NCBI GenBank assembly: GCA_015065165.1
Contig: SVQU01000004.1
Coordinates: 26,035-90,034 of the forward strand
Direction: 5' to 3'
Origin: Oscillospiraceae bacterium
GTDB taxonomy: Bacteria; Bacillota; Clostridia; Oscillospirales; CAG-382
Length of the DNA: 64,000 nucleotides
Below, piece after piece: positions 36,403-63,852 of the stretch. The notes beneath the pieces were generated by a model. The model had not been told where the DNA came from, did not search any database, and saw only the letters and a program-made list of their open reading frames with translations. The translations under genes and the position numbers were made by a program. How positions within the stretch are numbered: the stretch's first letter is position 1; every line of letters begins with the position of its first letter.

Positions 36403-36418
36403 AGGAGGATATCGAACA

Positions 36419-36817
36419 ATGGCAAAAGTACAGAAAAAGACAGCTGTCAAGAGACGTCGCGAAAGAAAGAATGTCGAAAGAGGCCAGGCTCATATCCAGT
36501 CTAGCTTCAACAATACCATCGTTACCATCACCGATACCAAGGGTAATGCAATTTCTTGGGCATCTGCTGGTGAACTTGGTTACAGAGGTTCGAGAAAATC
36601 CACTCCTTTTGCAGCACAGATGGCTGCTGAAACTGCCGCAAAGGCCGCTATGGAACACGGTATGAAGACTGTTGAAGTTTTCGTTAAGGGTCCCGGTCAG
36701 GGTAGAGAAGCCGCAATCCGTTCGCTTCAGGTTGCAGGTCTCGACATCACACTTATTAAAGACGTTACGCCGATCCCTCACAACGGTTGCAGACCGCCTA
36801 AGAGACGTCGCGTATAA
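36419..36817 (+). CDS. rpsK: 30S ribosomal protein S11
   Basis: [18 protein letters not shown] ... [13 protein letters not shown]. Confidence 0.97.
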
Positions 36818-36835
36818 CATTAAACGGAGGAAATT

Positions 36836-37468
36836 ATGGCAAGATATACTGGACCTTCCTGCCGCCTTTGCCGCAGAGAAGGCTGCAAGCTTTATCTCAA
36901 GGGTGAAAGATGCACCAGCGATAAGTGCGCACTTTCCCGCAGAGCTCAGGCTCCCGGCCAGCACGGCGCAGGCAGCGGTAGAAGAAGAGTCAAGGAATAT
37001 AGCCTTCAGCTTCGCGAAAAGCAGAAAGCTAAAAGGTACTATGGCATTCTGGAAAAGCAGTTTGAAAACTACTTTAAAAAGGCCGATAGAAAAGAAGGCC
37101 AGACCGGTGAGAACCTTCTCACTATGATCGAGCGCAGACTTGATAACGTAGTTTACCGTATGGGTATGGCAGACAGCCGTAAGGAAGCTCGCCAGCTCGT
37201 ACTTCACGAACACTTCACCGTAAACGGCAAGAAGGTAAACATTCCTTCTTACGAAGTACGTAAGGGTGATGTAATCGCACTTAAGGACGCTAGCCGTAAG
37301 AGCGAAAAGTTCAAGGTGCTTATCGAGAATATCACCGCAAGGACAGTACCTTCCTGGATGGAAGTTGACAAGCAGAACATTGTTTGCACCATCAAGGAAC
37401 TTCCTAAGAGAGAAGATGTAGATTTCCCCTTCGAGGAACACCTCATCGTCGAGCTCTATTCGAAATAA
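36836..37468 (+). CDS. rpsD: 30S ribosomal protein S4 (N-terminal Cys4)
   Basis: [31 protein letters not shown]. Confidence 0.97.
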
Positions 37469-51900: not shown

Positions 51901-51950
51901 AAATGCTTTCTTGGTCCGAAGATTGCACTGTAACCGTTACAGTTAAATAA
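48903..51950 (+). CDS. surface lipoprotein: three discoidin (F5/8 type C)-like modules plus a C-terminal glycoside-hydrolase-like (DUF4855-like) domain
   Basis: Lipobox LTAC at residues 15-18. Three modules each start with xLTDG and end with ARYV/I..F..(S/D)E(L/I). The C-terminal region carries the GYYWWHE, WIPYFNSNGY and QPNY motifs. Confidence 0.7.
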   Translation: MKRLIAILLSVLFVLTACGTDGNESSSANSSAEQSQSGTVSADRKTTVISNGAFYTAASPASDNHADSFGAELTDGVDTSDVEAYNDSRLSGFQMKTVTIVIDLGEECEKIYGAAVSYFPHDGQGLSQTLKIDVASSSDGKKWTPYAFYDTTAEPELDKVNRAEFIKDSYVSGRYVRFKVTGNESWVFLSELEVIADVEPKAGISYLDRVYEEYTNVGTVTAPTNGTDVNKEFNKILISKGCTYKFDAKIETDNPDVNTVLTDGNKPGDYVFGSYVGFIGNGETAKITIDLGQEAADIGAIEANFMYNPTSRIHLPLSLTVTAIDASNNRTDLGVLYGTQIEQIGGFTFSLPLKKTASARYIELSFKTIDGMKHFIEEISVYSYRDSMEQSSLYPQVIIEKGEAAEKEGATSDYKNLILKQPQMIFMPVNENAKPENNSKANNPVLTDGVFSTVGEAYDIHNGKFFKFNAGDVRYIIYDLKNLSAVDCFKGSFCKEQSWGIGAPETVSVLLSANGEDWYDAGSFALTATQYNGIVRGELKLKKAVQARYVVFTFAVGQWVGCDELEAYGTEAIANSVALADSGLGLAGGDSVNGSRIEPSADLLDGAKDLCLMYQNCNNTGYTKEELLPYVAYLNEDLEIKDTMFDSFLFLYANTNMPSGAYPYSQNFKSDWQWCIDDLFGEDINLNALEQAAGETKAALNLADDFTYKITVSINYPHKNQKNFGDVDGDGVSEDLTVYANRMKVCKWFVDEVARRFDEANFKNIELVGYYWWHEQIDDESDPDSVKLIKELGDYIHSLDYDYTWIPYFNSNGYDRWEELGFDVACLQPNYVFNLEAPLSNIYNVDKYTKELGMGVEMELHGGCLKEYSYFKRYMEYITLGAELGYMDDTVLMYYQDYTVFYSAAHSGTYFGRTIYDSTYHFMKGDLKNVPDTMEGIAYEGEANKPIFGKIELPEDKRCEIQISALPENGTVVMGNDGSFAFYPAKDFKGETSFSFIYNEMLSWSEDCTVTVTVK

Positions 51951-52338: not shown

Positions 52339-53943
52339 TTATGCTTGTTCTTTTCTGTTTATAAAGAAAACAACGGTTTTGATAATAAGGTTGATTGCAA
52401 GAATAATAATCGAAACCACAGCGGCATATTCAATCTGCATCTGAGCTTCGAATTGATTAATCATAAGCGAAACCGGCTTGTTTGCGGTGGTTGCCAAGAA
52501 GGATACCGCCGAAATAGTCATCATACAGTTAACAAAGAAATAAGAAAACATTTCGCAAATCGTGCCCTTGCATTGGGGAATCAAAACGTCCTTGATCAAA
52601 TGAATTCTGTTAATGCCAAGGGTTTGCGCCGTGCCCTCAAGATTCTCGTTAATCTTGGATAACGAGTTGTACATCATCAAATAGGGCGAAGAAATAAAGT
52701 GGATAATGTTAACCATTATCAAAATTATAATCGTACCGTAAATGGGTGTTTTGTTAAAGGTCAAAACGTAGGAAAGACCTAAAACCACACCGGGTATAGC
52801 GGCAGAAGTCATAGCGGAAAGATGTAAAAATCTCGATGCGGGAGATTTCATTCTTGCCGATAGATAAGCCGCCGTAAACGCAATGCAAACACCGATTGCG
52901 GCGGATGCCAAAGCAATTATAACCGAGTTGAATAAATAAGAATCTGCCTTTAAATTTAAGGTTTTAACAATGTTGTCAAAGGTAAAGGTCAGGTCCTGAG
53001 GATACCTTTTAGCGAATGCTAAAATAATAAAAGCAACAATAGGAAGAAGGGTTAAAAGTGAAACAATACCGCAATAGGAATAAGAGCAAAGCTTTGCAAA
53101 AAATCCGTCCGCTTGCTTGCAGGGCTTTGTAACAAAGGTGGATTTGCCCTTGTCCTTGTTCAAAAAGTCAATAATAAATGCGATAACCGCGGGGATAAGC
53201 AATAAACAACCATAAGCGGCACCCTTGCCGAAGTTAAGCTGACCAATAACCTCTTGATACATAACGGTGGCAACGGTGGTATATTTACCGCCAACCATAA
53301 GGGGCACACCATAGTCGGTAACGATAAGTGTGAAAATCGCAAATACAACGCTGATAAGAGGCTTGCGTAAATAGGGAAGTGTGATAGCGGTAAACTGTCT
53401 TGCCTTTGGAATCCCCAAAACCTCTGCGGCTTCATAGGGCGAGCCGTCCTCGTAACGTATAACGTCGGACAGCATAAGGAAAGCTACGGGGAAGGCATAT
53501 ATCACCGAACCGATAACAATGCCCCACAGACCGTAAATATTGCCCTCTAAATGCAACAAACGTGTTATTATACCGTTGTTACCTAAAAGTATAATTAAAC
53601 CCATACCGCTTGAAATAGAGGGTATCAGCATCGGTAGGGTAAGGATTATACCGAAAAGACCTTTAAACTTGATTTTGGTTCTTTGAATTGCGATAGCAAG
53701 AACAAAAGCGATAACAATTGTGATAACCGTTGCAACCAAAGCCGATGTAAGTGAATTTATGATAGCTTGAACAAAAACAGGGGAATCTACAACCTTTTTA
53801 ATGCTCTCTCCGTCCAGATATAAAAACATTCTTAACAGAGGGATAAATACCAAGGCGATAAATACTGCCGAAAGCAAAAGCTTTGTTAAATCCGAGCCTC
53901 GCTTTGTCTTTCCGCCGCCCTTTGAAATAACCTTAGAATTCAT
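52339..53943 (-). CDS. ABC transporter permease, duplicated (2 x 6 TM) Fe3+/thiamine/2-aminoethylphosphonate type
   Basis: 534 aa with two internal MalFG-type permease repeats, each carrying an EAA-like loop (YEAAEVLG.. and LEGTAQTLG..). Confidence 0.85.
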   Translation of the reverse strand: MNSKVISKGGGKTKRGSDLTKLLLSAVFIALVFIPLLRMFLYLDGESIKKVVDSPVFVQAIINSLTSALVATVITIVIAFVLAIAIQRTKIKFKGLFGIILTLPMLIPSISSGMGLIILLGNNGIITRLLHLEGNIYGLWGIVIGSVIYAFPVAFLMLSDVIRYEDGSPYEAAEVLGIPKARQFTAITLPYLRKPLISVVFAIFTLIVTDYGVPLMVGGKYTTVATVMYQEVIGQLNFGKGAAYGCLLLIPAVIAFIIDFLNKDKGKSTFVTKPCKQADGFFAKLCSYSYCGIVSLLTLLPIVAFIILAFAKRYPQDLTFTFDNIVKTLNLKADSYLFNSVIIALASAAIGVCIAFTAAYLSARMKSPASRFLHLSAMTSAAIPGVVLGLSYVLTFNKTPIYGTIIILIMVNIIHFISSPYLMMYNSLSKINENLEGTAQTLGINRIHLIKDVLIPQCKGTICEMFSYFFVNCMMTISAVSFLATTANKPVSLMINQFEAQMQIEYAAVVSIIILAINLIIKTVVFFINRKEQA

Positions 53944-53945
53944 AT

Positions 53946-54722
53946 TTAAGACCTCACGTATTTAGCCAAAGAATCGATTTTGGTCTTAAGGTTGTTCAAA
54001 ACGAATTCTTCAACGTAATCGTTGGCGGGGTTGGAAATGATGTTTTCGGGAGTGTCAAGCTGTTCCACGTTTGCTTCTCTCATAACCATAATTCTGTCGG
54101 ACATAGCAAAGGCTTCCTCTTGGTCATGGGTGATGTAAATCATAGTAGTGCCGAACTCAGCCTGAATACGCTTAAGCTCATCGCGAAGTGAAAGTCTTGT
54201 GGCAACGTCCAAAGCCGACATAGGCTCGTCAAAGAGAATGATTTCGGGGTTCATAACCAAGGTTCTTGCGATAGCAACTCTTTGCTGCTGACCGCCCGAA
54301 AGTGCGGTGGGGAGCTTGTCCGTGTGCTCGGACAAGCCCATATTTTCAATTGCCGCCAAGGCTTTTTGCCTAACCTCTGCGCGGGCAGATTTCGATTTGT
54401 TTTCCTTGCGTATCTTTAAAGCGTATTCCACGTTTTCAAGAACCGTCATATTTTCAAACAAGGCATAGTTCTGAAAAACGATACCCATACTTCTTTTCGA
54501 GGGATGTGCATAGGTTATGTCCTCGCCGTCCTTAAAAACGTTGCCGCTTGTGGGCTTTAAAAGACCAATCAAAATACGCAAAATAGTGGTTTTTCCGCAT
54601 CCCGAAGGACCTAATATAGAAAGGAATTCGCCGTTCTTAACGTCAAAATTAACACTGTTAAGGGTGCATTTTCCGTCGAATACCATCTTCAAATCTTTAA
54701 TAATCAATTTTGTATCTGTCAT
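53946..54722 (-). CDS. ABC transporter ATP-binding protein
   Basis: GPSGCGKTT, LSGGQQQRVAIARTL and ILFDEPMSALD motifs. I chose the ATG at 54722; the ORF could extend to the TTG at 54755. Confidence 0.9.
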   Translation of the reverse strand: MTDTKLIIKDLKMVFDGKCTLNSVNFDVKNGEFLSILGPSGCGKTTILRILIGLLKPTSGNVFKDGEDITYAHPSKRSMGIVFQNYALFENMTVLENVEYALKIRKENKSKSARAEVRQKALAAIENMGLSEHTDKLPTALSGGQQQRVAIARTLVMNPEIILFDEPMSALDVATRLSLRDELKRIQAEFGTTMIYITHDQEEAFAMSDRIMVMREANVEQLDTPENIISNPANDYVEEFVLNNLKTKIDSLAKYVRS

Positions 54723-54779
54723 ATTAATACTAAAAGTTCCTTTCGGGGAGTTCAATAAATCAATACGTCTAAATCTGAA

Positions 54780-55772
54780 TTAATACTTCCACATAGCCAA
54801 AAGTCTGTCTTTTTCGGCAATAGAGTTGTTGCTCATATCGCTGTATTTAATATCGGTGGGGAAGTTTTCCATTTTATAAGCTTTGTCCTTGAAAAGTGCT
54901 TCGGGACCGAATTTTTCGTTATATCTGTATCCGTATTCCTTAACCATATAATCGAATACTTCCTTAACACATTCTCTGGTTTCCTTGCCGGAAACCATAG
55001 CCTGACCGTAAATGGTAAAGGGCGAGCCTTCTTCAAAGTAAACAATCTTAAAGGGTGCGCCTTCGTTAATCTTAATAACCGTCTGCGCGGTCATACCCAA
55101 GCCGATAACAGCCTCGTTCTGAAGCAAAGCGTTAACGGGGCCGGAACCGGAGGAGGTGTATTGAAGAATATTTTCGGTAAGCTTATCGAAATAATCAAAA
55201 GCCTTTTCTTCGCCCCAATTGTTAACTAAGCTCTTAAGGAACATATAGCCTGTACCCGAGGATTTGGGGTTGGGCATAGAGATAAGACCCTTAAATTCGG
55301 GCTTGAGCAAATCTTCATAGCTCTTAGGCTCTTCCAAACCCTTCTGCTTTAACAAATCGGTGTTAATAATAACTGCACCGCCGCTGCGAAGGTGGGGGAT
55401 ATAGTTTTCATTTTCAATCAAATCGTTGTAATAAATGCCCTTGTCATAAGAGGAAAGGTCTGCAAGAATCTTCTTTTCGTCCAACTGTGCGAGGTAAGCG
55501 TATTCAAGGTCATAAATAATGTCGCATTCGGTGCCTGTACCTTCGGCAAGAAGCTTTGCCGCGTGGTTACCGGTGGACATATATTCAATAGTGATGTCAT
55601 AATCGGGGAATTTCTCTTTAAGACTTGCGGAAAGGTCTTCCACAACGTAGTCTTCAATACTGGTGTAAATGATGATTTTTTCTTTTTTGCTGCCGCAACC
55701 GCAAAGCAAAACGGAAAGCAAAATGCCGCATACTAAAAGCAACGCCAAGGATTTTGAAAGTCTGTTTTTCAT
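54780..55772 (-). CDS. ABC transporter substrate-binding lipoprotein (Fe3+/phosphonate-type SBP fold)
   Basis: I chose the ATG at 55772, which gives MKNRLSKSLALLLVCGILLSVLLCGCGS (lipobox). Mature part IIIYTSIEDY... The track ORF extends to 55856. Confidence 0.8.
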   Translation of the reverse strand: MKNRLSKSLALLLVCGILLSVLLCGCGSKKEKIIIYTSIEDYVVEDLSASLKEKFPDYDITIEYMSTGNHAAKLLAEGTGTECDIIYDLEYAYLAQLDEKKILADLSSYDKGIYYNDLIENENYIPHLRSGGAVIINTDLLKQKGLEEPKSYEDLLKPEFKGLISMPNPKSSGTGYMFLKSLVNNWGEEKAFDYFDKLTENILQYTSSGSGPVNALLQNEAVIGLGMTAQTVIKINEGAPFKIVYFEEGSPFTIYGQAMVSGKETRECVKEVFDYMVKEYGYRYNEKFGPEALFKDKAYKMENFPTDIKYSDMSNNSIAEKDRLLAMWKY

Positions 55773-55852
55773 AATAAACCTCTCTGTTTTTTTATGTATT
55801 ATTACCGAAGATAATGCTGTGTAGGATTTTACACAACTCTTTTCGGTTATAA

Positions 55853-56734
55853 TCAACGGTATGTTTTATCTAATTTCTTTAAATCTGCAAAGCTGTCAAT
55901 TTCGATAATGTCATCAAAGGTACAATCGCGAACCTCAACGGCATAATTGTCTGCGCAGTATTCCAAAGCGACCTGGTCCCAATATCTTTCCTTGCCGCCG
56001 GGCATTTCATAAACCTTTTTAATGTCCTCATACAGTTTTTCGCCGTCGTCTTCGTTCCAATAGGAAATACCGTATAAGTGATGGCAGTTTGTACCGCCGA
56101 TTTTAAGACCTGTAATAATACGGTTCTTGGTTTCCAAGCACCAGTCGTCTGTGGTTTCAACGGGAACTCCTAAATAGTTAGAGGTGTACTGATATTTGGA
56201 AATAAGGTTTTTGTTGTATAAAACCAAATCCGCTTCCATAACGTAAGCGTTTTTAATAAATTCACGGGCAAGCAAAGCCGAGGAAATGTTGTTTGCTTCA
56301 CCGTATAGATTGTTGTCGATAAACTTAATGTTGGGGTATTTGTAAAGCAATTGGTCAAACTGCTCGCCCAAATAACCTCTGACAATATAAATTTCCTCAA
56401 TTCCCGCTTCCACAACAGCATCCAAAAGAGTGTCAATCATTCTGGTGCCGTGAACACGAACCAAAGGCTTGGGAGTATTAAGGGTTATAGGAATAAGTCG
56501 CGAGCCAAACCCCGCCGCAATAAAAATTGCGCGCTTTACTCTGTAAGGCTCAAGCGCTTTATATCCTTCCTCGGTGATTCCACTGTCGGAAATATAACCG
56601 CTTTCCCCAAGGGTTGCCAAAACCTTGTTGACCGTGCCCGCAGACATATTTGTGCCTTCTGCAATGGCTCTTTGGGTAAGCTTTCCGTTTTTTTCAATAA
56701 ACGTAAGTACGTCGAACTGTTTTCTCTGTAACAT
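55853..56734 (-). CDS. winged-HTH domain fused to a LicC-like (phosphocholine/phosphonate) cytidylyltransferase
   Basis: The N-terminal 60 aa are MarR-like (LTQRAIAEGTNMSAGTVNKVLATL). Next comes AIFIAAGFGSRLIPITLNTPKPLV (NTP-transferase G-loop), then YWDQV and EIDSFADLKKL, as in LicC. Confidence 0.8.
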   Translation of the reverse strand: MLQRKQFDVLTFIEKNGKLTQRAIAEGTNMSAGTVNKVLATLGESGYISDSGITEEGYKALEPYRVKRAIFIAAGFGSRLIPITLNTPKPLVRVHGTRMIDTLLDAVVEAGIEEIYIVRGYLGEQFDQLLYKYPNIKFIDNNLYGEANNISSALLAREFIKNAYVMEADLVLYNKNLISKYQYTSNYLGVPVETTDDWCLETKNRIITGLKIGGTNCHHLYGISYWNEDDGEKLYEDIKKVYEMPGGKERYWDQVALEYCADNYAVEVRDCTFDDIIEIDSFADLKKLDKTYR

Positions 56735-56800: not shown

Positions 56801-56920
56801 GGGTGATGACACAAAAATGTATTATTGTTCAAAAACACTGTGGATTGAACATTGAATTGTTGCATATTCACTATAAAAATCATTTTCTTGTTAAAACTGC
56901 GTTCGTTTTTCTTTAATATA

Positions 56921-56974
56921 AAACAAAAACCCTTAAAACTCATCACGCTTTTGTGATTTGTCTTAAGGGTTTTA
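56921..56974 (-). terminator. compound rho-independent terminator
   Basis: On the minus strand, AACCCTTAA ... TTAAGGGTT encloses the inner hairpin ATCAC/GTGAT and is followed by TTTTTGTTTT. Confidence 0.75.
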
Positions 56975-56983
56975 TTTGTTCAA

Positions 56984-59107
56984 TTATTCGCCGTCTGCGT
57001 TGTCATTTGCTTCGCTTTCGGTTGAAGCGATATTGTTGCGGTTAAGACGTTCGATAATATAATCTGCCGCCGCCTCGCCGCTGGAACCAAGATTGTAGAA
57101 ATAGCTGTGCTTCAATTCATCAATCTGCTCGTAATAATTGTCCTTGTTGGCAATTAAGTTGTCAACAACGCTTGCGATATTCTTTGCTTCGTCCTTTTCA
57201 ATGGAAATACCAATGGTATCTCTTGCGGTAATATCAAAGGGCTTAAGCTTAATCTTTTGATAATCCTTGTTAACAACCTTCATTTCGGTGTTGATAAACA
57301 AGGTGGGCTTGTTGGTGGTAAAGCTGAATTCATAAGCAATCGCCGACCAGTCGGTGATAACCAAATCCGCTGTGTAAATGGTTACGTTAGAGGAAAAGTC
57401 GGTTTCGATGGAAAAGTCAGGTCCAAACTTGTCCTTGTATTTTTCAATAATAGATTCTATCTGCAAGGGGAATCTGCGGATATACTGGGGGTGAGGACGA
57501 ACGATAACGCGATATTTGTCGCAAATCAAGCTTTCCAGCATATCGTCAAGACAGCTGTCAAGAAGGTTATCGTACTGCCAGGAGGGTGCAACCAAAATGG
57601 TAGGCTTTTCGTTCTCCTTCTTTTCGCTTCCCTCGTATGCGGCAATCATATTGTCGATAAGACCGTAACCAATCTTAACAATACGCTTTTTCTTGGTGTT
57701 TCTCAGCTGTTCCATCTGGCGAACCTCAACACCCTGCTGACGGCTAACCGCAAAAATGGTGTCAAAGTAGTCAAATGCACCTGTTCTGTAGGTAAGGTTC
57801 AACGAAGTACATCCGTGGTCGGTGTAAACGTATTCGATGTTGGGATTCATTTTCGAACGCTTGATGTGGTATTTCTCAAGGTCGGGTGTGGTCATAACCA
57901 CCATCTTACATTCAAGCTTCATCATCAAGGCAATCAATTGGTTGCCGCTGATGTAATAGGGCTTAATCTGGTCAATACCGCATTCGAAAATCTTATCCTT
58001 GGGGTCGCTTGTGATGTAATAAATAGGCTCGTCGGTTTTTTCAAGCAAAGCCTTAATAATATTTTCAAAATACTTATAAAAACCGCTTTGCTCGGAATAG
58101 AACATAAGGTTCATTTTTTGCAAAGTGTCGCCCTTGCACAATTCCTTGTAATGCTGCTTTGAAAGCTTTTTGTTCTGCTTTTCAATTTCTGCATTTTCCT
58201 TGGCTTTCGCCTTCATTTTGTTCAACGTGTCGTAATCAATGTATTCCTTGGGACTGTACATCCAGTTCATAAGATACATAACGGGGATAGAAAAGAGGTT
58301 ACCGAATATCCAGTAAATACCGATAGCAGCGGGAACGAGAAAAGCAAAGTAAGCGGAGAAGGCAATCATAAAAATTGTCATACCCCATTGAGAAGCCGCG
58401 TTTTGCTCTATCTGAAGAACGTTAATTTTGTTCTGGATAATGCACATTATAAGCGCGCTTAAGCCCGCAAAAACAGGTACAAGGAACAAAAGGGTTAAAC
58501 CCCACTGGGGAATAGCAGAAAGGTCGATTCCCAAGAAATTCATCTTAATAGAGTTCATTTGCTCAAGGAATCCGCCAACGTCCATACCCGAAAGGGCATC
58601 GCTCTGCAAGGATAAAAATGCATCCTTGTGCTCGCTCTGCGCCGCTAAACGCATAGCCACCAATTCGGGGGAAGAACCCAAATCGGTTGTGCCCATAATG
58701 GCCGACGCTTTGTTAACAAAAGCATCAATAACATGCTGGGGAAAATGAAGTATATGCTTCATCGGGCGGTAAACAACGTCGATAAGACCGAAAATCAAGG
58801 GCAACTGAATCAAAAGAGGAATAACACCCATAATAGGGCTGTATTTTTCCTTTTTATAAAGCTCGCTCTGTGCATCGATAAAAGCGTCCTTATCGTCAAC
58901 GTAGCGATACTTCAAGGCTTCCAGCTCAGGCTTCATTTTAATCATTTTAATGGAATTCTTCTGCACCAAAATGTTAATGGGCATAAGAATCACCTTTGTG
59001 AGCAACGTGAAAACTATGATAGCAATACCGTAATTCTTAATTATATCATAGCAAAATTTCATAAGGTATCCCAAAGGAGTACCCAAAAGATTACTGATAA
59101 AATCCAT
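56984..59107 (-). CDS. fusion protein: N-terminal YidC/Oxa1-type membrane insertase domain plus C-terminal CDP-glycerol glycerophosphotransferase (TagB/TagF)-like domain
   Basis: aa 1-300: YGIAIIVFTLLTKVILMPI..., MKPELEALKYRY, PLLIQLPLIFGL and GIYWIFGNLFSIP (YidC signatures). aa ~335-700: ILVAPSWQYDN, VRPHP and LVITDWSAIAYEFSFTTNKPTLFI (TagF-like signatures). Confidence 0.75.
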   Translation of the reverse strand: MDFISNLLGTPLGYLMKFCYDIIKNYGIAIIVFTLLTKVILMPINILVQKNSIKMIKMKPELEALKYRYVDDKDAFIDAQSELYKKEKYSPIMGVIPLLIQLPLIFGLIDVVYRPMKHILHFPQHVIDAFVNKASAIMGTTDLGSSPELVAMRLAAQSEHKDAFLSLQSDALSGMDVGGFLEQMNSIKMNFLGIDLSAIPQWGLTLLFLVPVFAGLSALIMCIIQNKINVLQIEQNAASQWGMTIFMIAFSAYFAFLVPAAIGIYWIFGNLFSIPVMYLMNWMYSPKEYIDYDTLNKMKAKAKENAEIEKQNKKLSKQHYKELCKGDTLQKMNLMFYSEQSGFYKYFENIIKALLEKTDEPIYYITSDPKDKIFECGIDQIKPYYISGNQLIALMMKLECKMVVMTTPDLEKYHIKRSKMNPNIEYVYTDHGCTSLNLTYRTGAFDYFDTIFAVSRQQGVEVRQMEQLRNTKKKRIVKIGYGLIDNMIAAYEGSEKKENEKPTILVAPSWQYDNLLDSCLDDMLESLICDKYRVIVRPHPQYIRRFPLQIESIIEKYKDKFGPDFSIETDFSSNVTIYTADLVITDWSAIAYEFSFTTNKPTLFINTEMKVVNKDYQKIKLKPFDITARDTIGISIEKDEAKNIASVVDNLIANKDNYYEQIDELKHSYFYNLGSSGEAAADYIIERLNRNNIASTESEANDNADGE

Positions 59108-59128
59108 AATTAACCTTCACTTTAAAAA

Positions 59129-59665
59129 TCAATTAAATCCGAAAATCATCTTTCCGTAAATTTCTTCAAATTCCACTTCGGGTTTTTCCCAAAAACGCGA
59201 ATCGTTGGATTTTGCTCGGTTGTCCCCCAAAAGGAAATATCCGTTTTCTGTCAGTACAATCGGACCGAAGTTGTCATCCTCGTCAAAAACAAAGTAATCA
59301 TCGTCAATTGCGCTTCCGTTTATAAAAACTCTGCCACCGCGAATCTCAACCGTTTCGTTAGGAAGTCCTATAACACGTTTAACGATGTGTCCCTTTGTGA
59401 TAGCTTCTCGCTGAAAAACAATCACGTCTCCGCGCTTTGGCGTTTCGTTTTTATAAGGAATGGAGGAAACCAGAATAAAATCTCCGTCTGAAAGAGTGGG
59501 GGACATAGAATCCCCGCTAACTCTGGTAAGTCGAAAGAGAAGAAAACTGCATATAAAGGCAAGCGCAAGCGCCGCCGAAACTAAAATCAAAAATTTATAT
59601 TCCGGATTCAAACGCTTGCGGTGTCTGTCAGAAGAATTATTCTTCGCCTTCGTTATCAAAATCAT
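59129..59665 (-). CDS. lepB: signal peptidase I
   Basis: VSGDSMSPTL (catalytic Ser), VKRVIGLP (Lys) and GDNRAKSNDSR boxes. The start is uncertain: ATG 59665 or TTG 59704. Both overlap the upstream gene. Confidence 0.85.
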   Translation of the reverse strand: MILITKAKNNSSDRHRKRLNPEYKFLILVSAALALAFICSFLLFRLTRVSGDSMSPTLSDGDFILVSSIPYKNETPKRGDVIVFQREAITKGHIVKRVIGLPNETVEIRGGRVFINGSAIDDDYFVFDEDDNFGPIVLTENGYFLLGDNRAKSNDSRFWEKPEVEFEEIYGKMIFGFN

Positions 59666-59930
59666 CAAATTCGCCGTTGTCGTCGATTTCTTCGGTCTGT
59701 TCAACGGGTGCTACAGGCTTGCTTTCGTCCTTGTTGCGACGAAGCTTTCTCTTGATTTTGTTAAAGTAGAAACCAAGAGTAGCACCGCTGACAACAACGA
59801 TACCAACCACAACCTGAACGATGTAGGTCATAGCCGAGGGGTCGATATATGCGCCGGCAGTCAACGCCATTGCAATCATACCCATTACGAAAAACAAACA
59901 AAAGGTAAGGATAGATAAAGCTTTTTTCAT
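59637..59930 (-). CDS. small two-TM membrane protein with an acidic C-terminal tail
   Basis: 97 aa. RBS AGAGG. Two hydrophobic helices, then KIKRKLRRNK and EEIDDNGEFDDFDNEGEE. Confidence 0.6.
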   Translation of the reverse strand: MKKALSILTFCLFFVMGMIAMALTAGAYIDPSAMTYIVQVVVGIVVVSGATLGFYFNKIKRKLRRNKDESKPVAPVEQTEEIDDNGEFDDFDNEGEE

Positions 59931-59951: not shown

Positions 59952-61844
59952 TTAATAAAATTTATTCTTGTCGTCGGTGATGTCGTGGGTTTCAATTAAC
60001 TTCCAGTTGTCGAAATCCGCCGCGTTGCCGATGATTTCATATACGTAATACTTAACTTCGTCATAACTGCCGCTGGAGGATGCCGACTTGTAATAATAAC
60101 GTACTACTTCATCGTTTTCGCCGATTTCGTCCAAGGGCGTGCCGTACAAGCTGTAATCGCCGCCCACGCTCTTAATAAGAGTAGCGGGGATGTTGTCTGT
60201 GCAAACAGGCGCCGAGGACCAGGTCAATTTCGTACCCGAGCTTTTCGAGGGTTTATAGAATAAACCAAGTCTTGTTGCCGCCAAAACAGGCTTCTTGTCC
60301 CCTTGGTGCATACCGTGGTCGCCGGTGATGATAATTGTTGCATCATCGTAAATGCCCAATTCCTTCATTCTGTCAAAGGTGGCGTAAAGAATATTCATAC
60401 AACCCATCAACTGTTCGGTAACCGAGGTTTCGGTTTCGCTTAACTTACCCTCCGATGTCAAGGTGTAGGGAGCGTGAGGTCCGTTAAAGTGATAGAACTT
60501 AAAGTTGCTTTGATTTCTGTCCGCAACGGCGGTTTTAAATCCGTCTGCATATTCGTGGTCGGCAAAAACGTAGGTTTTTGAATCGTCCGAAACCAAAACG
60601 TCTTGGTTGAAATAGTTGGTGTCTGCCCAATAGAAGGGTTTAAGGTTAATTGGCAAATAGCGGTAAGCGGAAAGCTCCAATAATTTGCTTAACATCACCT
60701 TTTTGTTAATTTCCTTGGGCGCGCCCGATTGAGAGTTAATTACGTATTGTGCAACGTAATCGGGGTCGGAGAAGAGGGAATAAACGTCGGTGTAAAATTC
60801 AGAGGTGAATCCTGCGCCCGAAAGGTCTCTTAACAAATCCTTGCCGTCCTGCTTCCAGGAATCCTTATAGAATTTCTCGGTGGGGACGTTATATGCAAGG
60901 TCCTCACAGCCTGTCAACATCTGGTTAAGTGCAGGCTGAGTTCTTGCAAATGCAGAGATAGCGTTGTTATATCCGGTAAATCCGTCTAACGGCTCGAGAA
61001 AATCGGGGTCTTCGTCAAGAACGCGCTGTATGTAATCAAAATCCAATCTGTCTAAAACAAAAACAAATACGTTGTCTTTAGAGGAATATTCGTACATACC
61101 CTTTGTGGTAAGCTGGCACTCCTCCATTTCCACGTTGCCCATATCGTAAAGCCCTGCGAATATACCCACAGAGGAGAAAAATTGAATAAAAATGATAAAC
61201 GCAGAAACGTAATATATTGCGTTGGTCCACATTTTGCGGTTGAGATACATCAAAAGATAAAATGCTGCGTAAACGATAAACCAAACCGCAACACTCCAAA
61301 TCATTTCGCTGCGCATTTCCGCCCAAGGGATGGCATCTCCCGTAAGTGCGCCCAGCGAACCGTTAAGAAACATAGATTGAATGTATGCCGCAACGGTAGA
61401 TGAGAAAATAAAACCGACGATATAGTTAAATATCTTTCCCTTTAAAAGCGACAGCAGAAGCGAAAGAACCGCCGTTACTGCCAGCATGGTTGTAACCAAC
61501 AGCCATACGATGTCCTTATAACCGAACACCAAGGAATCACCGCTGAAAGCCACCAATTCCAAAGGACCGAAGAATATAAAGGTAAAGCATGCGGCGAATA
61601 TAGCCACTGCAGATATCAAAAGACGCTTTCGATAGCTTCTTTTGTCTGTCCATAATGCAGAAAGCTTTTTTGAAAGTTGTGATTTTTCTTTGGGTTTCAA
61701 GTTGTCTTTGTTTGTAACCTCTGTTTTTTTACAGGAAGCATCGTTTGCATCATCTGCGCCCGAGGTTCTGTTTACAATTTCGTTGTCCGAGGAGGTGTTT
61801 TCAACCTCGGTTTCCGAAACGTTTGTGTCCATTTCGTTATTCAA
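59952..61844 (-). CDS. LtaS-like (sulfatase/alkaline-phosphatase superfamily) polytopic membrane protein
   Basis: A ~75-aa hydrophilic N-terminus, five TM helices, then an extracytoplasmic domain with FVFVLDRLDFDY, FARTQPAL and IIITGDHGMH. The TTG start at 61844 lies 9 nt after GGGAGA. Confidence 0.75.
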   Translation of the reverse strand: MNNEMDTNVSETEVENTSSDNEIVNRTSGADDANDASCKKTEVTNKDNLKPKEKSQLSKKLSALWTDKRSYRKRLLISAVAIFAACFTFIFFGPLELVAFSGDSLVFGYKDIVWLLVTTMLAVTAVLSLLLSLLKGKIFNYIVGFIFSSTVAAYIQSMFLNGSLGALTGDAIPWAEMRSEMIWSVAVWFIVYAAFYLLMYLNRKMWTNAIYYVSAFIIFIQFFSSVGIFAGLYDMGNVEMEECQLTTKGMYEYSSKDNVFVFVLDRLDFDYIQRVLDEDPDFLEPLDGFTGYNNAISAFARTQPALNQMLTGCEDLAYNVPTEKFYKDSWKQDGKDLLRDLSGAGFTSEFYTDVYSLFSDPDYVAQYVINSQSGAPKEINKKVMLSKLLELSAYRYLPINLKPFYWADTNYFNQDVLVSDDSKTYVFADHEYADGFKTAVADRNQSNFKFYHFNGPHAPYTLTSEGKLSETETSVTEQLMGCMNILYATFDRMKELGIYDDATIIITGDHGMHQGDKKPVLAATRLGLFYKPSKSSGTKLTWSSAPVCTDNIPATLIKSVGGDYSLYGTPLDEIGENDEVVRYYYKSASSSGSYDEVKYYVYEIIGNAADFDNWKLIETHDITDDKNKFY

Positions 61845-62604: not shown

Positions 62605-63591
62605 TTAGTCAGCGAGAGTCAAGCCAACGTAGTGAGCAAAGTTCTTGCCGTTGTTGATGCCTGCGCCAAAGCCTGCATATACAGCGTTTTCGTCTTCGCC
62701 CTGTTCAACGGTGATGTCAACTTCTTCACATGCAGCAGAGAAAGCATAACCGATTACGTTGCCTGCTTTAGCTTCATAACCGATACCGCCTGCGATTGCA
62801 GTCCAGGGAATTGCCTGTTCGTAAATTTCGTTGTCGAAGCCGCCGAGCTTGATTTCATATTTGTAAGCAGGGTCAGCGGTAACAGCGCCGAAGTGGTCAG
62901 CACAAATTTTGTCGCCGTTGGGTTGAGCAGTGTTGGTCCATTCGCTTGCAAAGCCTGCGTTGTAAGCATCGCCCCATTCCCAAGAAGCGCCAACGGGAGG
63001 AATGTATTTGGGATCGGTAGGATCGCCGAGAATAACCGCGCTCATAACGTGTCTTCTGTCGAAGATGTAAGGACGAACGGTAAGATAGTCGGTGTTTTCA
63101 TAGGTTCTGGGCTTGCCGGAGCCAAGAGAAACAGCGGTGTAAAGATAGGTTTCATCCCAAGAAATGTAAAGCTTGGGTTCATAGTCTGCAGCGGTTTCGG
63201 TAGAACCGATGTTCCAGATAAGCTCGTCTGCGTCAAATTCGAAAACGGTTTCGTATTCGTCAGCGGAAATTACACCGTCAACTTCAACTGCGCCGGGAGC
63301 CTTTTTGATTTCGTAATCATCGTATTCAACGGGTTCGAAAACTTCGGGTTCTTCTTCTTCTTCGGAAGATTCATCGCCAGAAGATTCAACAGTAGAAGAT
63401 TCAACAGTAGAAGATTCAACAACGGAAGATTCAACAACAGAAGATTCAACGGTGGAAGAAGAAACCTTGGATTCTTCCTTGGGTGCGGAATTTGCATTAG
63501 AGAATGCGGGGGTGCTGCTTTCATCGGAACCTCCGCAAGCAACAAGGGAAAATACTAAAAGCAGTGTCAAGAGTAAAGTTAAAAATCTCAT
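62605..63591 (-). CDS. lipoprotein with a Ser/Glu/Val repeat linker and a CBM9/DOMON-like carbohydrate-binding domain
   Basis: I chose the ATG at 63591 after GGAGG, giving MRFLTLLLTLLLVFSLVACGG (lipobox). The linker is VESS(V/T) x5 plus an EEEEE run. The C-terminal domain has KLYISWDETYLYTAVSL. Confidence 0.7.
   Translation of the reverse strand: MRFLTLLLTLLLVFSLVACGGSDESSTPAFSNANSAPKEESKVSSSTVESSVVESSVVESSTVESSTVESSGDESSEEEEEPEVFEPVEYDDYEIKKAPGAVEVDGVISADEYETVFEFDADELIWNIGSTETAADYEPKLYISWDETYLYTAVSLGSGKPRTYENTDYLTVRPYIFDRRHVMSAVILGDPTDPKYIPPVGASWEWGDAYNAGFASEWTNTAQPNGDKICADHFGAVTADPAYKYEIKLGGFDNEIYEQAIPWTAIAGGIGYEAKAGNVIGYAFSAACEEVDITVEQGEDENAVYAGFGAGINNGKNFAHYVGLTLAD
63364..63453. repeat. 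in-frame 15-bp tandem repeat (about 6 units) inside the lipoprotein gene
   Basis: Units of (A/G)GAAGATTCAAC(A/G)(A/G)(T/C) at 63379, 63394, 63409, 63424 and 63439, plus a degenerate unit at 63364. Confidence 0.9.
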
Positions 63592-63852
63592 AAAGTCCTC
63601 CATAAAAAATTTGTTCAAATTAAGTTTTTTGCAACGTTAATTTGACGACTGCATTACTGTATAATTTTATCATCAAATGTTATTTCTTTCAATTGGCATT
63701 TTGACAAATCTTTATGTTCAATTTAGTGTGTTTTTAACAAATGATATTAACAGTTTGAAAACGGTTGTTATATGCTGTTATATAAACTTGTAAAATATAA
63801 GTTGTTATGATATAATATGGTGAAAGTGAAAGAAAAAAGGAGGTTATACGCA

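What the first reader, a model, noticed from the sequence alone, without database searches (positions are those of the whole stretch)
56984..59107. Single polypeptide fusing a complete YidC/Oxa1 insertase to a TagF-like glycerophosphotransferase domain
- The first ~300 aa carry the YidC hallmarks: the amphipathic and TM2 region YGIAIIVFTLLTKVILMPINILVQ, then MKPELEALKYRY, PLLIQLPLIFGL and AAIGIYWIFGNLFSIP.
- A Lys-rich linker follows.
- A ~370-aa cytoplasmic domain then shows the CDP-glycerol glycerophosphotransferase family signatures: PTILVAPSWQYDN, VRPHPQY and ADLVITDWSAIAYEFSFTTNKPTLFINTE.
- The frame is continuous, with no stop or obvious frameshift. The fusion is therefore genuine if the sequence is correct.
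- I am not aware of a characterised YidC-TagF fusion.
- It suggests either a YidC-fold domain recruited as a membrane anchor or lipid-scramblase-like partner for polyol-phosphate polymer synthesis, or coupling of insertase activity to teichoic-acid-type assembly.
Basis: partly seen in the sequence, partly recalled or inferred. Interest (0 to 1): 0.65.

Follow-up and report, generated by a model that had tools for sequence, protein, structure and literature searches.

The report
YidC fused to TagF-like transferase
This is a real, widespread but unstudied membrane protein that joins a YidC-type insertase fold to a TagF-like phosphotransferase, and its neighbours suggest it is the enzyme that attaches aminoethylphosphonate or phosphocholine to the cell envelope of gut Clostridia.

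Summary
The ORF exists as described, on the minus strand (56984-59107, 707 aa). Both domains pass Pfam's curated cut-offs. AlphaFold gives a confident YidC core joined by one long helix to a GT-B domain whose best PDB matches are TagF structures.

It is not an artefact. Three metagenome assemblies reproduce it without a gap. A related strain differs by 25 synonymous and 2 non-synonymous changes. At least 568 species-representative genomes encode relatives, including Roseburia inulinivorans DSM 16841.

It is not the housekeeping yidC. It never lies near rpmH, and it is 22% identical to a canonical Oscillospiraceae YidC.

The conserved neighbours are an LtaS-like 5-TM enzyme, a procoat-like microprotein with an invariant YxDP motif after an AxA site, often signal peptidase I, and interchangeable donor-supply modules. 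These modules are a choline kinase with LicC, PEP mutase with Ppd, a PntC-aminotransferase fusion, or (as here) a PhnS2T2U2-like importer with a MarR-fused cytidylyltransferase.

Best reading: the TagF-like domain transfers a phosphocholine or aminoethylphosphonate head group from a cytidine nucleotide (here probably CMP-AEP) to a membrane-bound acceptor. The role of the YidC fold is unresolved. No paper found describes this.

The parts
56984..59107 (-). YidC-TagF-like fusion gene (707 aa)
   Evidence: ORF. Pfam PF02096 and PF04464 both above their cut-offs. AF2 mean pLDDT 84.8.
58253..59107 (-). YidC/Oxa1 core, aa 1-285: N-terminal amphipathic helix, TM1 with groove Lys38, cytoplasmic hairpin, TM2, insertion, TM3-TM5
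   Evidence: Profile match to E. coli YidC 5MG3/3WVF at E about 1e-22, with K38 aligned to R366. Foldseek match to B. halodurans YidC 3WO7, TM-score 0.66 on the target. Helices from the AF2 model.
58523..58765 (-). About 75-80-aa extracytoplasmic insertion between TM2 and the FLGIDLS motif (aa about 115-195)
   Evidence: Absent from the ~625-aa relatives. Shared with the canonical Oscillospiraceae YidC. It is the fastest-evolving part (dN 0.21-0.46).
58118..58252 (-). Linker, aa 286-330: conserved PKxYIDY motif followed by one long Lys-rich helix (aa 292-324)
   Evidence: AF2 secondary structure. P286, Y289, I290, D291 and Y292 are invariant in A1.
57038..58117 (-). Cytoplasmic TagF-like GT-B domain, aa 331-690. 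Invariant residues: H431, S509, N514, R537-H539-P540, D586-W587-S588, E593, K610, R629
   Evidence: Foldseek top hits are TagF 3L7I-L, Cps3D 8QOY and Bcs3 8A0C. The profile aligns to TarL 8VA1 over the APTFR / MHP / DYSS..E motifs. Invariant columns.
56920..56981 (-). Intrinsic-terminator-like hairpin plus U-run directly after the fusion's stop codon
   Evidence: -26.1 kcal/mol, z = -7.6, no shuffle of 200 folds as well. Sequence read.
59129..59704 (-). Signal peptidase I (S26), ending 22 nt upstream of the fusion's start codon
   Evidence: PF10502 at 123 bits, TIGR02227 at 125.7 bits. Present in 28 of 54 fully flanked loci. Fused to YidC-TagF in P0123.
59637..59930 (-). Procoat-like microprotein (97 aa): signal peptide, AxA site, invariant Y-I-D-P motif, one TM helix, basic stretch, acidic tail
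   Evidence: All 56 orthologs have Y[ILVF]DP. Position -1 is Ala in 47 of 56, and position -3 is A/V/S in 52 of 56. Present in 45 of 54 fully flanked loci. Divergent copies occur in L006 and L091.
59952..61844 (-). LtaS/PbgA/EptA-like enzyme: 5 TM helices plus an extracytoplasmic alkaline-phosphatase-fold domain. Invariant T290, T302, H452, H457, D509-H510
   Evidence: Profile match to S. aureus LtaS 2W5Q at E=1.7e-8. AF2 pLDDT 86.5, pTM 0.82. Foldseek hits PbgA 6XLP, phosphonate monoester hydrolase 2VQR and LtaS 2W5R. Present in 43 of 54 fully flanked loci, 41 of them on the same strand. Fused to YidC-TagF in P0121, P0140, P0141 and P0159.
55853..56734 (-). MarR-type wHTH fused to a LicC/PntC-like cytidylyltransferase
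   Evidence: PDB 1JYK LicC at E=4e-31 and 6PD1 Tde-PntC at E=4e-12. Pfam. Glu at the LicC-D105 position and Asp at the D192 position.
52339..55856 (-). ABC importer: binding protein 54780-55856, ATPase 53946-54755, double permease 52339-53943. Best matches are PhnS2/PhnT2/PhnU2
   Evidence: NCBIfam TIGR03261 at 210 bits, TIGR03265 at 298 bits and TIGR03262 at 385 bits. Each is the best hit but lies below its equivalog cut-off. A terminator-like site lies at 52334-52309.

Best explanation
The gene encodes the membrane-embedded transferase of a Lic/Pnt-type cell-envelope head-group decoration pathway. It is not the housekeeping insertase and not a classical teichoic-acid polymerase.

Proposed sequence in this window:
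1. A PhnS2T2U2-like ABC importer takes up 2-aminoethylphosphonate (AEP) or a close analogue. This step is inferred.
2. The MarR-fused LicC/PntC-like enzyme converts it with CTP to CMP-AEP. This step is inferred.
3. The cytoplasmic TagF-like GT-B domain attacks the activated phosphorus with a hydroxyl of a membrane-bound acceptor and releases CMP. This is the same chemistry TagF performs with CDP-glycerol. The step is inferred, and the acceptor is unknown.
4. The YidC-fold half is tied to the enzyme by a single long helix. It holds the active site at the cytoplasmic mouth of its hydrophilic groove. It most likely passes the small zwitterionic, now decorated moiety across the membrane. That moiety could be a lipid head group or the short hairpin loop of the co-encoded procoat-like microprotein. 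This step is speculative.
5. Outside the membrane, the LtaS-like enzyme hands the head group on through a Thr nucleophile, and signal peptidase I processes the microprotein. This step is speculative.

Sister clades run the same machine on CDP-choline (choline kinase plus a LicC of the D/D type) or on AEP made in the cell (PEP mutase, Ppd, aminotransferase).
For: Domain identity and integrity.

Both halves are under purifying selection. The X7 strain shows 25 synonymous against 2 non-synonymous changes. Against orthologs dS is saturated while dN is 0.08-0.26.

The groove cation is kept as K or R in all 31 diverse members.

The TagF-family donor motifs and two His residues are invariant, even in ~30%-identical stand-alone relatives.

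Neighbourhoods of 80 species-level loci contain: LtaS-like 56, microprotein 59, SPase 36, LicC-like 41, PntC-aminotransferase fusion 10, choline kinase 17, PhnS2-like binding protein 14, PEP mutase plus Ppd 8. In the 54 loci with at least 5 kb on each side the counts are 43, 45 and 28 for the first three, and 41 have a cytidylyl-donor gene.

Multi-domain relatives link the parts: Sulfatase-YidC-TagF in both orders, SPase-YidC-TagF, and YidC-TagF-choline kinase.

Unfused versions keep the same parts: L091, L090, L006 and L009.

In R. inulinivorans DSM 16841 the order is fusion, microprotein, aminotransferase, CTP_transf-PEP mutase, Ppd, all in one orientation. RNA-derived contigs cover the cluster.

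Donor assignment: the two specificity positions of Rice et al. 2019 (PMC6697681) sort by context. They are D/D in 12 of 12 free-standing LicC-like enzymes next to a choline kinase, E/E in 10 of 10 aminotransferase-fused enzymes, and E/D in 18 of 18 ABC-linked enzymes including the window's.

The window's TagF-like domain clusters with PntC- and PepM-linked systems. The choline-kinase-linked systems form a separate clade.

YidC lipid scrambling has been shown in vitro (PMC11047089).

The gene is not the housekeeping copy. None of 89 loci has rpmH within 10 kb. Canonical Oscillospirales yidC lies in dnaA-rpmH-rnpA-yidD-yidC-jag and is 22% identical. L004 has two tandem paralogs.
Against: No biochemical data exist for any member. 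The acceptor is unknown.

The ABC transporter scores lie below NCBIfam's equivalog cut-offs. The cytidylyltransferase is more similar overall to LicC than to Tde-PntC, and only one of its two specificity positions is PntC-like. Phosphocholine, phosphoethanolamine or another small phospho-compound therefore remains possible as the cargo.

Thirteen of 54 fully flanked loci have no donor gene within 10 kb.

Stand-alone TagF-like relatives work without a nearby YidC (L006, L090), so the YidC fold is not indispensable to the chemistry.

The inter-domain geometry rests on one AF2 model with pTM 0.66, and its coordinates could not be inspected.

No RNA run holds the window's own gene. RNA-derived contigs can also contain DNA.
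Confidence: 0.55

Rival explanations
1. Anchor only. The YidC fold has lost any transport role and merely tethers the TagF-like enzyme to the membrane. The enzyme decorates an undecaprenyl-linked glycan or a glycolipid at the cytoplasmic face, and an unrelated flippase exports the product.
For: TagF-family enzymes act on lipid-linked acceptors at the cytoplasmic face (established knowledge of the family). Stand-alone relatives sit in ordinary polysaccharide clusters with Bac_transf, GT2 and LCP genes and no YidC (L006). Some fusions lie beside GT-C-like or glycosyltransferase genes (L007).
Against: A simple anchor needs no conserved hydrophilic groove. Yet the K/R of TM1 and polar TM residues (Q101, Q225, N229, N270) are invariant or nearly so across 32-63%-identical members, and the YidC half is under purifying selection. 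L091 and L009 keep a separate YidC gene inside the cluster, and a covalent anchor cannot work from a separate gene. The LtaS-like partner is fused to YidC-TagF in either order.
Confidence: 0.2
2. Dedicated insertase. The YidC half is a true protein insertase reserved for the module's own membrane proteins. Its main client would be the procoat-like microprotein, which signal peptidase I then cleaves, and possibly also the 5-TM LtaS-like enzyme. The TagF-like domain is fused only so that the complex assembles in one place.
For: The microprotein has the layout of a classic YidC-plus-leader-peptidase substrate: a signal peptide, a loop of about 9 residues containing an acidic residue, a second hydrophobic helix and a basic tail (own knowledge of M13 procoat). 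Its AxA site is canonical. SPase I is in half of the loci and is fused to YidC-TagF in P0123. The YidC core is complete and passes TIGR03592.
Against: An insertase acts transiently on newly made protein, so a permanent fusion to an enzyme in more than 500 species is hard to explain by biogenesis alone. The microprotein also occurs next to stand-alone TagF-like genes with no YidC nearby (L006), so it follows the enzyme and not the insertase. Housekeeping YidC and SPase should be able to handle such a client.
Confidence: 0.2
3. Classical teichoic-acid enzyme on the housekeeping insertase. The gene is the cell's only YidC, carrying a CDP-glycerol poly(glycerol-phosphate) primase or polymerase.
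For: Pfam names the C-terminal domain as CDP-glycerol:poly(glycerophosphate) glycerophosphotransferase. TagF and TarL are its best structural and sequence relatives. A TagD-like gene lies near 8 of 80 loci. NCBI's pipeline names the protein YidC.
Against: There is no TagD-like gene near the gene in the window. The Pfam match is weak and partial (31.5 bits, profile positions 146-349 of 367). No NCBIfam TagF/TarL model matched. Donor genes are overwhelmingly of the LicC/PntC/PepM type. The gene is never at the rpmH-rnpA-yidC-jag site, is 22% identical to a canonical Oscillospiraceae YidC, and occurs in tandem copies in L004.
Confidence: 0.05
4. Artefact. Two adjacent genes were joined by a sequencing or assembly error.
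For: None found.
Against: Three independent assemblies are identical across the junction with no gap, and a related strain has no indels. The same architecture occurs in hundreds of species down to 34% identity. An RNA-derived contig spans the whole ortholog in R. inulinivorans.
Confidence: 0.01

Closest known systems
YidC/Oxa1/Alb3 insertases (E. coli YidC, B. subtilis SpoIIIJ/MisCA, B. halodurans YidC2)
   Same: It has the five-TM core with a cytoplasmic helical hairpin, a conserved cation in TM1 (K38 aligned to E. coli R366), and the LLIQxP and YWxxxN motifs. It passes PF02096 and TIGR03592. It shares the TM2/TM3 insertion and the groove Lys with canonical Oscillospiraceae YidC.
   Different: It carries a 380-aa cytoplasmic enzyme domain where YidC2 and Oxa1 carry a ribosome-binding tail. 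It is never at the rpmH-rnpA-yidD-yidC-jag locus. It is only 22% identical to the canonical YidC of the same family. It has a family-specific QNxxNVLQxEQ motif after TM3. It is embedded in an accessory envelope-decoration operon.
TagF/TagB/TarL CDP-polyol phosphotransferases (PF04464) and TagF-like capsule polymerase domains (Cps3D, Bcs3)
   Same: It has the GT-B-like two-Rossmann fold and these are its best PDB matches. It shares the APxW/F, (R/K)xHP and D(W/Y)S..E motifs and has two invariant His residues.
   Different: It is a divergent subfamily. The Pfam match is weak and partial, and single-sequence PDB and NCBIfam searches give no hit. The donor-supply genes point to CDP-choline or CMP-AEP and not to CDP-glycerol or CDP-ribitol. 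Those head groups have no free hydroxyl, so a polymerase role is unlikely. The membrane attachment comes from a YidC fold or a separate microprotein and not from TagF's own membrane-binding helices.
Lic pathway (LicA choline kinase, LicC, LicD phosphocholine transferase) and Pnt pathway (PntC; Rice et al. 2019, PMC6697681)
   Same: The logic is the same: a small aminoalkyl phosph(on)ate is cytidylylated by a LicC/PntC enzyme and then transferred to an envelope acceptor. LicA-, LicC- and PntC-type genes are the commonest neighbours.
   Different: No LicD-type transferase was seen in the operon among the neighbours scanned. A TagF-like domain occupies that place. An LtaS-like enzyme, a microprotein, SPase and a YidC fold are added. 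In the window, import replaces both biosynthesis and the kinase step.
LtaS / EptA (MCR-1) / PptA / PbgA: 5-TM alkaline-phosphatase-fold membrane proteins
   Same: The partner protein has the same architecture and fold. LtaS is its best sequence match and PbgA its best full-length fold match. A Thr lies at the start of a helix, and the DH metal ligands are invariant. From my own knowledge, these enzymes move phospho-head groups from lipids to acceptors outside the membrane, and S. aureus LtaS is cleaved by signal peptidase.
   Different: This comparison concerns the neighbour and not the finding itself. Its donor and acceptor are unknown. It is fused to YidC-TagF in some species, which is not known for LtaS or EptA.
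Three-component extracytoplasmic modification systems (GtrB/CsbB - GtrA - GtrC/YfhO; DltA-D with the DltX microprotein)
   Same: The proposed logic matches: a cytoplasmic charging enzyme, a membrane passage, and a transferase outside. The Dlt system also uses a small membrane microprotein with a conserved Tyr (own knowledge).
   Different: There is no homology to any of these components. The resemblance is one of logic only and was not tested here.
M13 procoat / Pf3 coat insertion by YidC and leader peptidase
   Same: The microprotein has the procoat layout and a canonical AxA site, and it is encoded next to a YidC fold and an SPase I.
   Different: It is a cellular microprotein with an invariant YxDP mature N-terminus. 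It also occurs where there is no dedicated YidC.

Membership tests
YidC/Oxa1/Alb3 insertase family | Match to the family profile above the curated threshold | tested here: met
   PF02096 at 112.6 bits (cut-off 35). TIGR03592 at 105.4 bits (cut-off 84.3).
YidC/Oxa1/Alb3 insertase family | Five-TM core with a cytoplasmic coiled-coil hairpin between TM1 and TM2 | tested here: met
   AF2 helices 26-40, 42-68/73-86, 96-113, 206-228, 237-257 and 260-283. Foldseek match to 3WO7 with TM-score 0.66 on the target.
YidC/Oxa1/Alb3 insertase family | Conserved positive charge in the hydrophilic groove (E. coli R366, B. halodurans R72) | tested here: met
   K38 aligns with R366. The position is K or R in all 31 members of A2. 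The canonical Vescimonas YidC also has Lys there.
YidC/Oxa1/Alb3 insertase family | Housekeeping gene position rpmH-rnpA-(yidD)-yidC-jag | tested here: not met
   No L34 gene lies within 10 kb in any of 89 loci. Canonical Oscillospirales genes do lie there.
YidC/Oxa1/Alb3 insertase family | Insertase activity on client proteins | not testable with these tools
   This needs a depletion and complementation experiment or a reconstitution.
TagF/TarL CDP-polyol phosphotransferases (PF04464) | Match to the family profile above the curated threshold | tested here: met
   31.5 bits against a cut-off of 22.1, but only profile positions 146-349 of 367 are covered. Relatives score up to 60.9 bits.
TagF/TarL CDP-polyol phosphotransferases (PF04464) | GT-B-like fold closest to TagF | tested here: met
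   Foldseek ranks 1-6 are TagF 3L7I-L and Cps3D 8QOY, with E about 1e-9 and TM-score 0.55-0.60 on the TagF targets.
TagF/TarL CDP-polyol phosphotransferases (PF04464) | C-terminal-lobe nucleotide-binding motifs, including the His equivalent to TagF H584 | tested here: met
   APSWQ, RPHP and DWS..E align with TarL APTFR, KMHP and DYSS..E. H539, D586, S588 and E593 are invariant. Equating H539 with TagF H584 rests on my own knowledge.
TagF/TarL CDP-polyol phosphotransferases (PF04464) | N-terminal-lobe catalytic His (TagF H444) | tested here: inconclusive
   H431 is invariant and lies in the N-terminal lobe after strand 425-429. No residue-level alignment to TagF was obtained.
TagF/TarL CDP-polyol phosphotransferases (PF04464) | CDP-glycerol or CDP-ribitol as donor (a tagD/tarIJ supply gene) | tested here: not met
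   The window has no TagD-like hit, and only 8 of 80 loci have one. The donor genes are of the LicC, PntC and PepM type. A tagD gene elsewhere in the genome cannot be excluded.
Lic/Pnt head-group tailoring pathways | LicC/PntC-type cytidylyltransferase in the cluster | tested here: met
   Match to 1JYK at E=4e-31. A LicC-like enzyme or a PntC-aminotransferase fusion occurs in most loci.
Lic/Pnt head-group tailoring pathways | LicD-type transferase | tested here: not met
   None of the window's neighbouring proteins hit a LicD family in Pfam or NCBIfam. The TagF-like domain is the only candidate transferase.
Lic/Pnt head-group tailoring pathways | Phosphonate or phosphocholine actually present on the envelope | not testable with these tools
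   This needs 31P-NMR or mass spectrometry of the cell envelope.

The most novel reading that the evidence does not exclude
The YidC fold is used here as the membrane-crossing step of a small-molecule decoration pathway and not for general protein biogenesis. In this reading, the fused TagF-like domain loads AEP or phosphocholine onto a carrier at the cytoplasmic mouth of the groove. The carrier would be either a lipid such as diacylglycerol or the hairpin loop of the YxDP microprotein. The groove then carries the decorated head group or loop to the outside. There signal peptidase and the LtaS-like enzyme complete the relay. This would be the first YidC-family member with a dedicated translocation role for a non-protein cargo or a modified peptide. 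It would also identify the missing transferase that consumes CMP-AEP.
Probability: 0.3. Interest if true: 0.9.

Novelty: new variant of a known kind. Interest (0 to 1): 0.7.

Why it matters
Rice et al. 2019 showed that most bacterial phosphonate biosynthesis passes through CMP-AEP and left the later steps open. In the searchable library that is the only paper that mentions CMP-AEP. This protein family is a concrete candidate for the step that consumes it, and for a LicD-independent route to phosphocholine decoration. The candidate is very common and can be tested in cultured strains.

The carriers are abundant gut and rumen Clostridia (Roseburia, Ruminococcus, Oscillospiraceae), whose surface zwitterions are relevant to host immunity.

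For YidC biology, the family offers a natural fusion in which the groove is permanently coupled to an enzyme. That is a clean system for testing whether Oxa1-family grooves move cargo other than nascent proteins, as the in-vitro scrambling data suggest.

It also exposes an annotation problem. Hundreds of these genes are labelled simply 'membrane protein insertase YidC'.

Tried and rejected
- Single-sequence PDB search with the C-terminal domain found nothing useful. A profile was needed.
- Single-sequence PDB search with the LtaS-like partner gave no hit. A profile and a fold search were needed.
- Literature searches for the fusion, for a TagF-like phosphocholine transferase, for AEP in Clostridial teichoic acids, and for YidC together with glycerophosphotransferase found nothing relevant. 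The supplements of the two phosphonate surveys hold no mention of the domains or are not held.
- PADLOC gave no anti-phage defence match for the fusion, the microprotein or the partner.
- No RNA run holds the window's own gene.
- The question of a second, canonical yidC in the same genome could not be answered directly. The only genome-contig scan went to mapping distribution and context. The loci held reach only 10 kb from the gene. The plasmid collection gave canonical yidC loci only from relatives that lack the fusion. The evidence on this point is therefore indirect.
- dN/dS against orthologs could not be given as a number because dS is saturated.
- The idea that the ~75-aa insertion is special to the fusion was rejected. 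Canonical Oscillospiraceae YidC has it too.
- The idea that Lys in place of Arg in the groove marks loss of function was rejected for the same reason.
- I first took T290 for the partner's nucleophile. The AF2 model places T302 at the start of a helix, as in LtaS, so both residues are reported.


Full report
THE OBSERVATION. The ORF is real and lies on the minus strand at 56984..59107. It has an ATG start and encodes 707 aa. The plus strand at those coordinates is full of stops. Pfam finds 60KD_IMP at aa 26-281 (112.6 bits, cut-off 35) and Glyphos_transf at aa 462-669 (31.5 bits, cut-off 22.1). NCBIfam finds yidC_oxa1_cterm above its cut-off and no TagF/TarL model.

The AlphaFold2 model, built on 48 homologs, has mean pLDDT 84.8 and pTM 0.66. 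It shows an N-terminal amphipathic helix, TM1, a cytoplasmic helical hairpin, TM2, a helical insertion of about 80 residues, and TM3-TM5. One 33-residue Lys-rich helix (aa 292-324) follows, and then a two-lobed Rossmann domain. The best PDB matches by Foldseek are the TagF structures 3L7I-L and the TagF-like domains of the capsule polymerases Cps3D and Bcs3. The N-terminal half matches B. halodurans YidC. A family profile aligns to E. coli YidC at E about 1e-22, placing Lys38 on Arg366.

NOT AN ARTEFACT. Three faecal-metagenome runs each hold an 11,093-nt contig identical to 56900-59200 with no gap, at about 12-13x depth. A related strain shows substitutions only. Of the 27 substitutions inside the ORF, 25 are synonymous, and they are spread over both halves. 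Against orthologs dS is saturated while dN is 0.08-0.26 in both halves.

The architecture is common. The 120 best clusters (60-98% identity) are nearly all about 700 aa, and most carry both Pfam domains. An exhaustive search of 1.84 billion representatives finds full-length relatives down to 34% identity. They include cultured Roseburia inulinivorans DSM 16841, Bittarella massiliensis and Waltera hominis. Where a source names the protein, it calls it 'membrane protein insertase YidC'.

NOT THE HOUSEKEEPING YIDC. None of 89 loci has an L34 gene within 10 kb. In related Oscillospirales (Vescimonas, Monoglobus) the canonical gene lies in dnaA-rpmH-rnpA-yidD-yidC-jag. The Vescimonas protein is only 22% identical to the fusion's YidC half. 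It does share the TM2/TM3 insertion and the groove Lys, so neither feature is peculiar to the fusion. One genome has two tandem copies of the fusion. I could not show directly that a carrier genome also has a canonical yidC.

THE NEIGHBOURHOOD. In the window the gene is the last of a four-gene unit on the minus strand. The unit runs: a 630-aa sulfatase-family protein (59952-61844), a 97-aa membrane protein (59637-59930), signal peptidase I (59129-59704), then the fusion. A strong hairpin with a U-run ends the unit (-26.1 kcal/mol, z = -7.6). After a promoter-like site comes a second unit: a MarR-wHTH fused to a nucleotidyltransferase, then an ABC importer.

The importer's three parts each match NCBIfam's 'putative 2-aminoethylphosphonate' PhnS2, PhnT2 and PhnU2 best, though below the equivalog cut-offs. 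The nucleotidyltransferase matches S. pneumoniae LicC over its full length (1JYK, E=4e-31). The next match is the PntC domain of T. denticola Tde1415.

Across 80 species-level loci, tblastn finds the sulfatase-like gene in 56, the microprotein in 59, SPase in 36, and a LicC-like gene in 41. It also finds a PntC-aminotransferase fusion in 10, a choline kinase in 17, the PhnS2-like binding protein in 14, and PEP mutase with phosphonopyruvate decarboxylase in 8. Among the 54 loci with at least 5 kb on both sides, the figures are 43 for the sulfatase-like gene, 45 for the microprotein, 28 for SPase and 41 for a cytidylyl-donor gene. Nearly all are on the same strand as the fusion.

FUSED AND UNFUSED VERSIONS. 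Longer relatives join the parts in one chain. These are Sulfatase-YidC-TagF and YidC-TagF-Sulfatase, SPase-YidC-TagF, and YidC-TagF-choline kinase. All are topologically compatible with a YidC that has its N-terminus outside and its C-terminus inside.

Unfused versions also exist. L091 has, in order, a sulfatase, a microprotein, a stand-alone 199-aa YidC, CTP_transf-PEP mutase, Ppd, Fe-ADH and a stand-alone TagF-like gene. L090 has a PntC-aminotransferase, a TagF-like gene and a sulfatase. L006 (Natronincola) has a microprotein directly upstream of a stand-alone TagF-like gene in a PEP-mutase and polysaccharide cluster, with no YidC nearby.

In R. inulinivorans the order is fusion, microprotein, aminotransferase, CTP_transf-PEP mutase, Ppd. 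RNA-derived contigs cover the cluster. One 2,278-nt contig spans the whole fusion gene and runs into the microprotein gene.

WHICH DONOR. Rice et al. 2019 (PMC6697681) showed that LicC prefers phosphocholine and PntC prefers AEP. They noted that Spn-LicC has Asp at positions 105 and 192, where Tde-PntC has the bulkier Glu. In the neighbours of the fusion these two positions sort cleanly by context. They are D/D in all 12 free-standing LicC-like enzymes next to a choline kinase. They are E/E in all 10 aminotransferase-fused enzymes. They are E/D in all 18 ABC-linked MarR-fused enzymes, including the window's. PEP-mutase-linked enzymes are E/D, E/E or H/E.

A neighbour-joining ordering of the TagF-like domains places the window's clade among PntC- and PepM-linked systems. 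The choline-kinase-linked systems form their own clade. I therefore think the window's system scavenges AEP and makes CMP-AEP, at about 50-55% confidence. Sister systems would use CDP-choline or AEP made in the cell. The TagF-like domain keeps the family's donor-binding motifs and two invariant His residues, even in stand-alone relatives of about 30% identity. Catalytic competence is therefore likely.

THE PARTNERS. A profile of 23 orthologs of the sulfatase-like protein matches the extracellular domain of S. aureus LtaS best (E=1.7e-8). Its AlphaFold model (pLDDT 86.5, pTM 0.82) has five TM helices and an extracytoplasmic alkaline-phosphatase-fold domain. The best fold matches are PbgA over the full length, phosphonate monoester hydrolases, sulfatases and LtaS. 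T290, T302 (at the start of a helix, as Thr300 is in LtaS by my own knowledge), H452, H457 and D509-H510 are invariant. There is no Cys/Ser-x-Pro-x-Arg sulfatase motif around them. A phosphotransferase of the LtaS/EptA kind is therefore more likely than a sulfatase.

The microprotein is a signal peptide of median 27 residues ending in a canonical AxA site. Position -1 is Ala in 47 of 56 orthologs, and position -3 is A/V/S in 52 of 56. An invariant Y-x-D-P follows, then one TM helix, a basic stretch and an acidic tail. By my own knowledge, this is the layout of M13 procoat, the textbook substrate of YidC and leader peptidase.

MECHANISM: WHAT IS SHOWN AND WHAT IS INFERRED. Shown here:
- the domain identities and the integrity of the fusion;
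- purifying selection on both halves;
- the conserved gene set and the fused and unfused versions of it;
- the alternation of donor-supply modules.

Inferred:
- The TagF-like domain transfers the phospho- or phosphono-head group from the cytidine nucleotide to a membrane-bound hydroxyl.
- The LtaS-like enzyme acts on the outside.

Speculative: what the YidC fold does. Three readings remain.
1. It carries the decorated moiety across the membrane. E. coli YidC scrambles phospholipids in vitro and B. subtilis MisCB does so in simulations (PMC11047089). The procoat-like loop is also natural YidC cargo.
2. It is a dedicated insertase for the module's own membrane proteins.
3. It is only an anchor.

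Two observations weigh against reading 3: the conserved groove, and the separate YidC genes kept in L091 and L009. One observation weighs against reading 2: the microprotein follows the TagF-like enzyme even where no YidC is near. I favour reading 1, but only modestly.

COMPARISON WITH WHAT IS KNOWN, AND NOVELTY. The protein is a member of the YidC/Oxa1 family by profile, by fold and by the groove residue, but not by genomic position. It is a divergent member of the TagF family by fold and motifs, but not by donor supply. The system works like the Lic and Pnt pathways but lacks LicD. Its partner resembles LtaS, EptA and PbgA.

No paper in the library describes the fusion or any enzyme that consumes CMP-AEP. 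The architecture is already catalogued in the protein databases, so the novelty lies in the functional reading. I rate it a new variant of a known kind. If the YidC groove proves to be the translocation step, it would deserve a higher rating.

Noticed in passing
window 59637-59930 (-): A 97-aa microprotein with a signal peptide, a canonical AxA site, an invariant Y-I-D-P mature N-terminus, one TM helix, a basic stretch and an acidic tail. It has no Pfam or NCBIfam family. It accompanies the TagF-like subfamily even where no YidC is present (L006, L091).
   Followed up: yes
window 55853-56734 (-): A MarR-type winged-helix domain is fused to the N-terminus of a LicC/PntC-like cytidylyltransferase. 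All 18 ABC-linked examples have Glu at the LicC-D105 position and Asp at the D192 position. The fusion may act as both enzyme and regulator.
   Followed up: partly
P0121, P0123, P0129, P0140, P0141, P0159: Multi-domain relatives exist: Sulfatase-YidC-TagF in both orders (1200-1545 aa), SPase-YidC-TagF (861 aa) and YidC-TagF-choline kinase (905 aa). I did not check whether any of them is a gene-calling or assembly artefact of a metagenome.
   Followed up: partly
L004 4822-6708 (-) and 8001-9875 (+): Two YidC-TagF-like paralogs lie in one locus. One is beside a TagD-like cytidylyltransferase and a TylF-type methyltransferase. The other is beside a radical-SAM/CTP_transf protein, Ppd and CTP_transf-PEP mutase. 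This suggests two different head groups in one organism.
   Followed up: no
L092 3968-5074 (Vescimonas) and L093 3980-5014 (Monoglobus): Canonical Oscillospirales YidC proteins (344-368 aa) already carry the ~75-aa extracytoplasmic insertion between TM2 and TM3, and the Vescimonas protein has Lys in place of the groove Arg. These large replicons carry dnaA-rpmH-rnpA-yidD-yidC-jag although they are filed as plasmids.
   Followed up: partly
window 13408-16164 (-): A 918-aa YfhO-family (GT-C) protein. By my own knowledge of the family it glycosylates teichoic-acid-type polymers outside the membrane. This suggests the organism has such polymers, and they are possible final acceptors.
   Followed up: no
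window 48903-51950 (+): A 1015-aa protein with F5/8 type C, DUF4855 (338 bits) and cadherin-like domains. It is probably a secreted or surface carbohydrate-binding protein.
   Followed up: no
window 62605-63618 (-): A 337-aa protein with a lipoprotein-like N-terminus (LVACGG) and a run of (S/T)VESS repeats. It has no Pfam match.
   Followed up: no
window 36266-37441 (-): A 391-aa ORF with no Pfam match lies on the opposite strand in the SecY-Adk-Map-RpoA ribosomal gene region. It is probably not a real gene.
   Followed up: no
L049, L067, L069, L024: Some loci come from bins labelled Barnesiella, Caulobacteraceae, Treponema or Selenomonadaceae, and P0169 comes from Deferribacterales. This reflects either horizontal spread beyond Clostridia or binning contamination.
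   Followed up: no
P0113 (608 aa): This protein is identical to P0044 until residue ~586 and then diverges into unrelated sequence inside the DWS motif. It looks like a frameshifted or mis-assembled copy.
   Followed up: no
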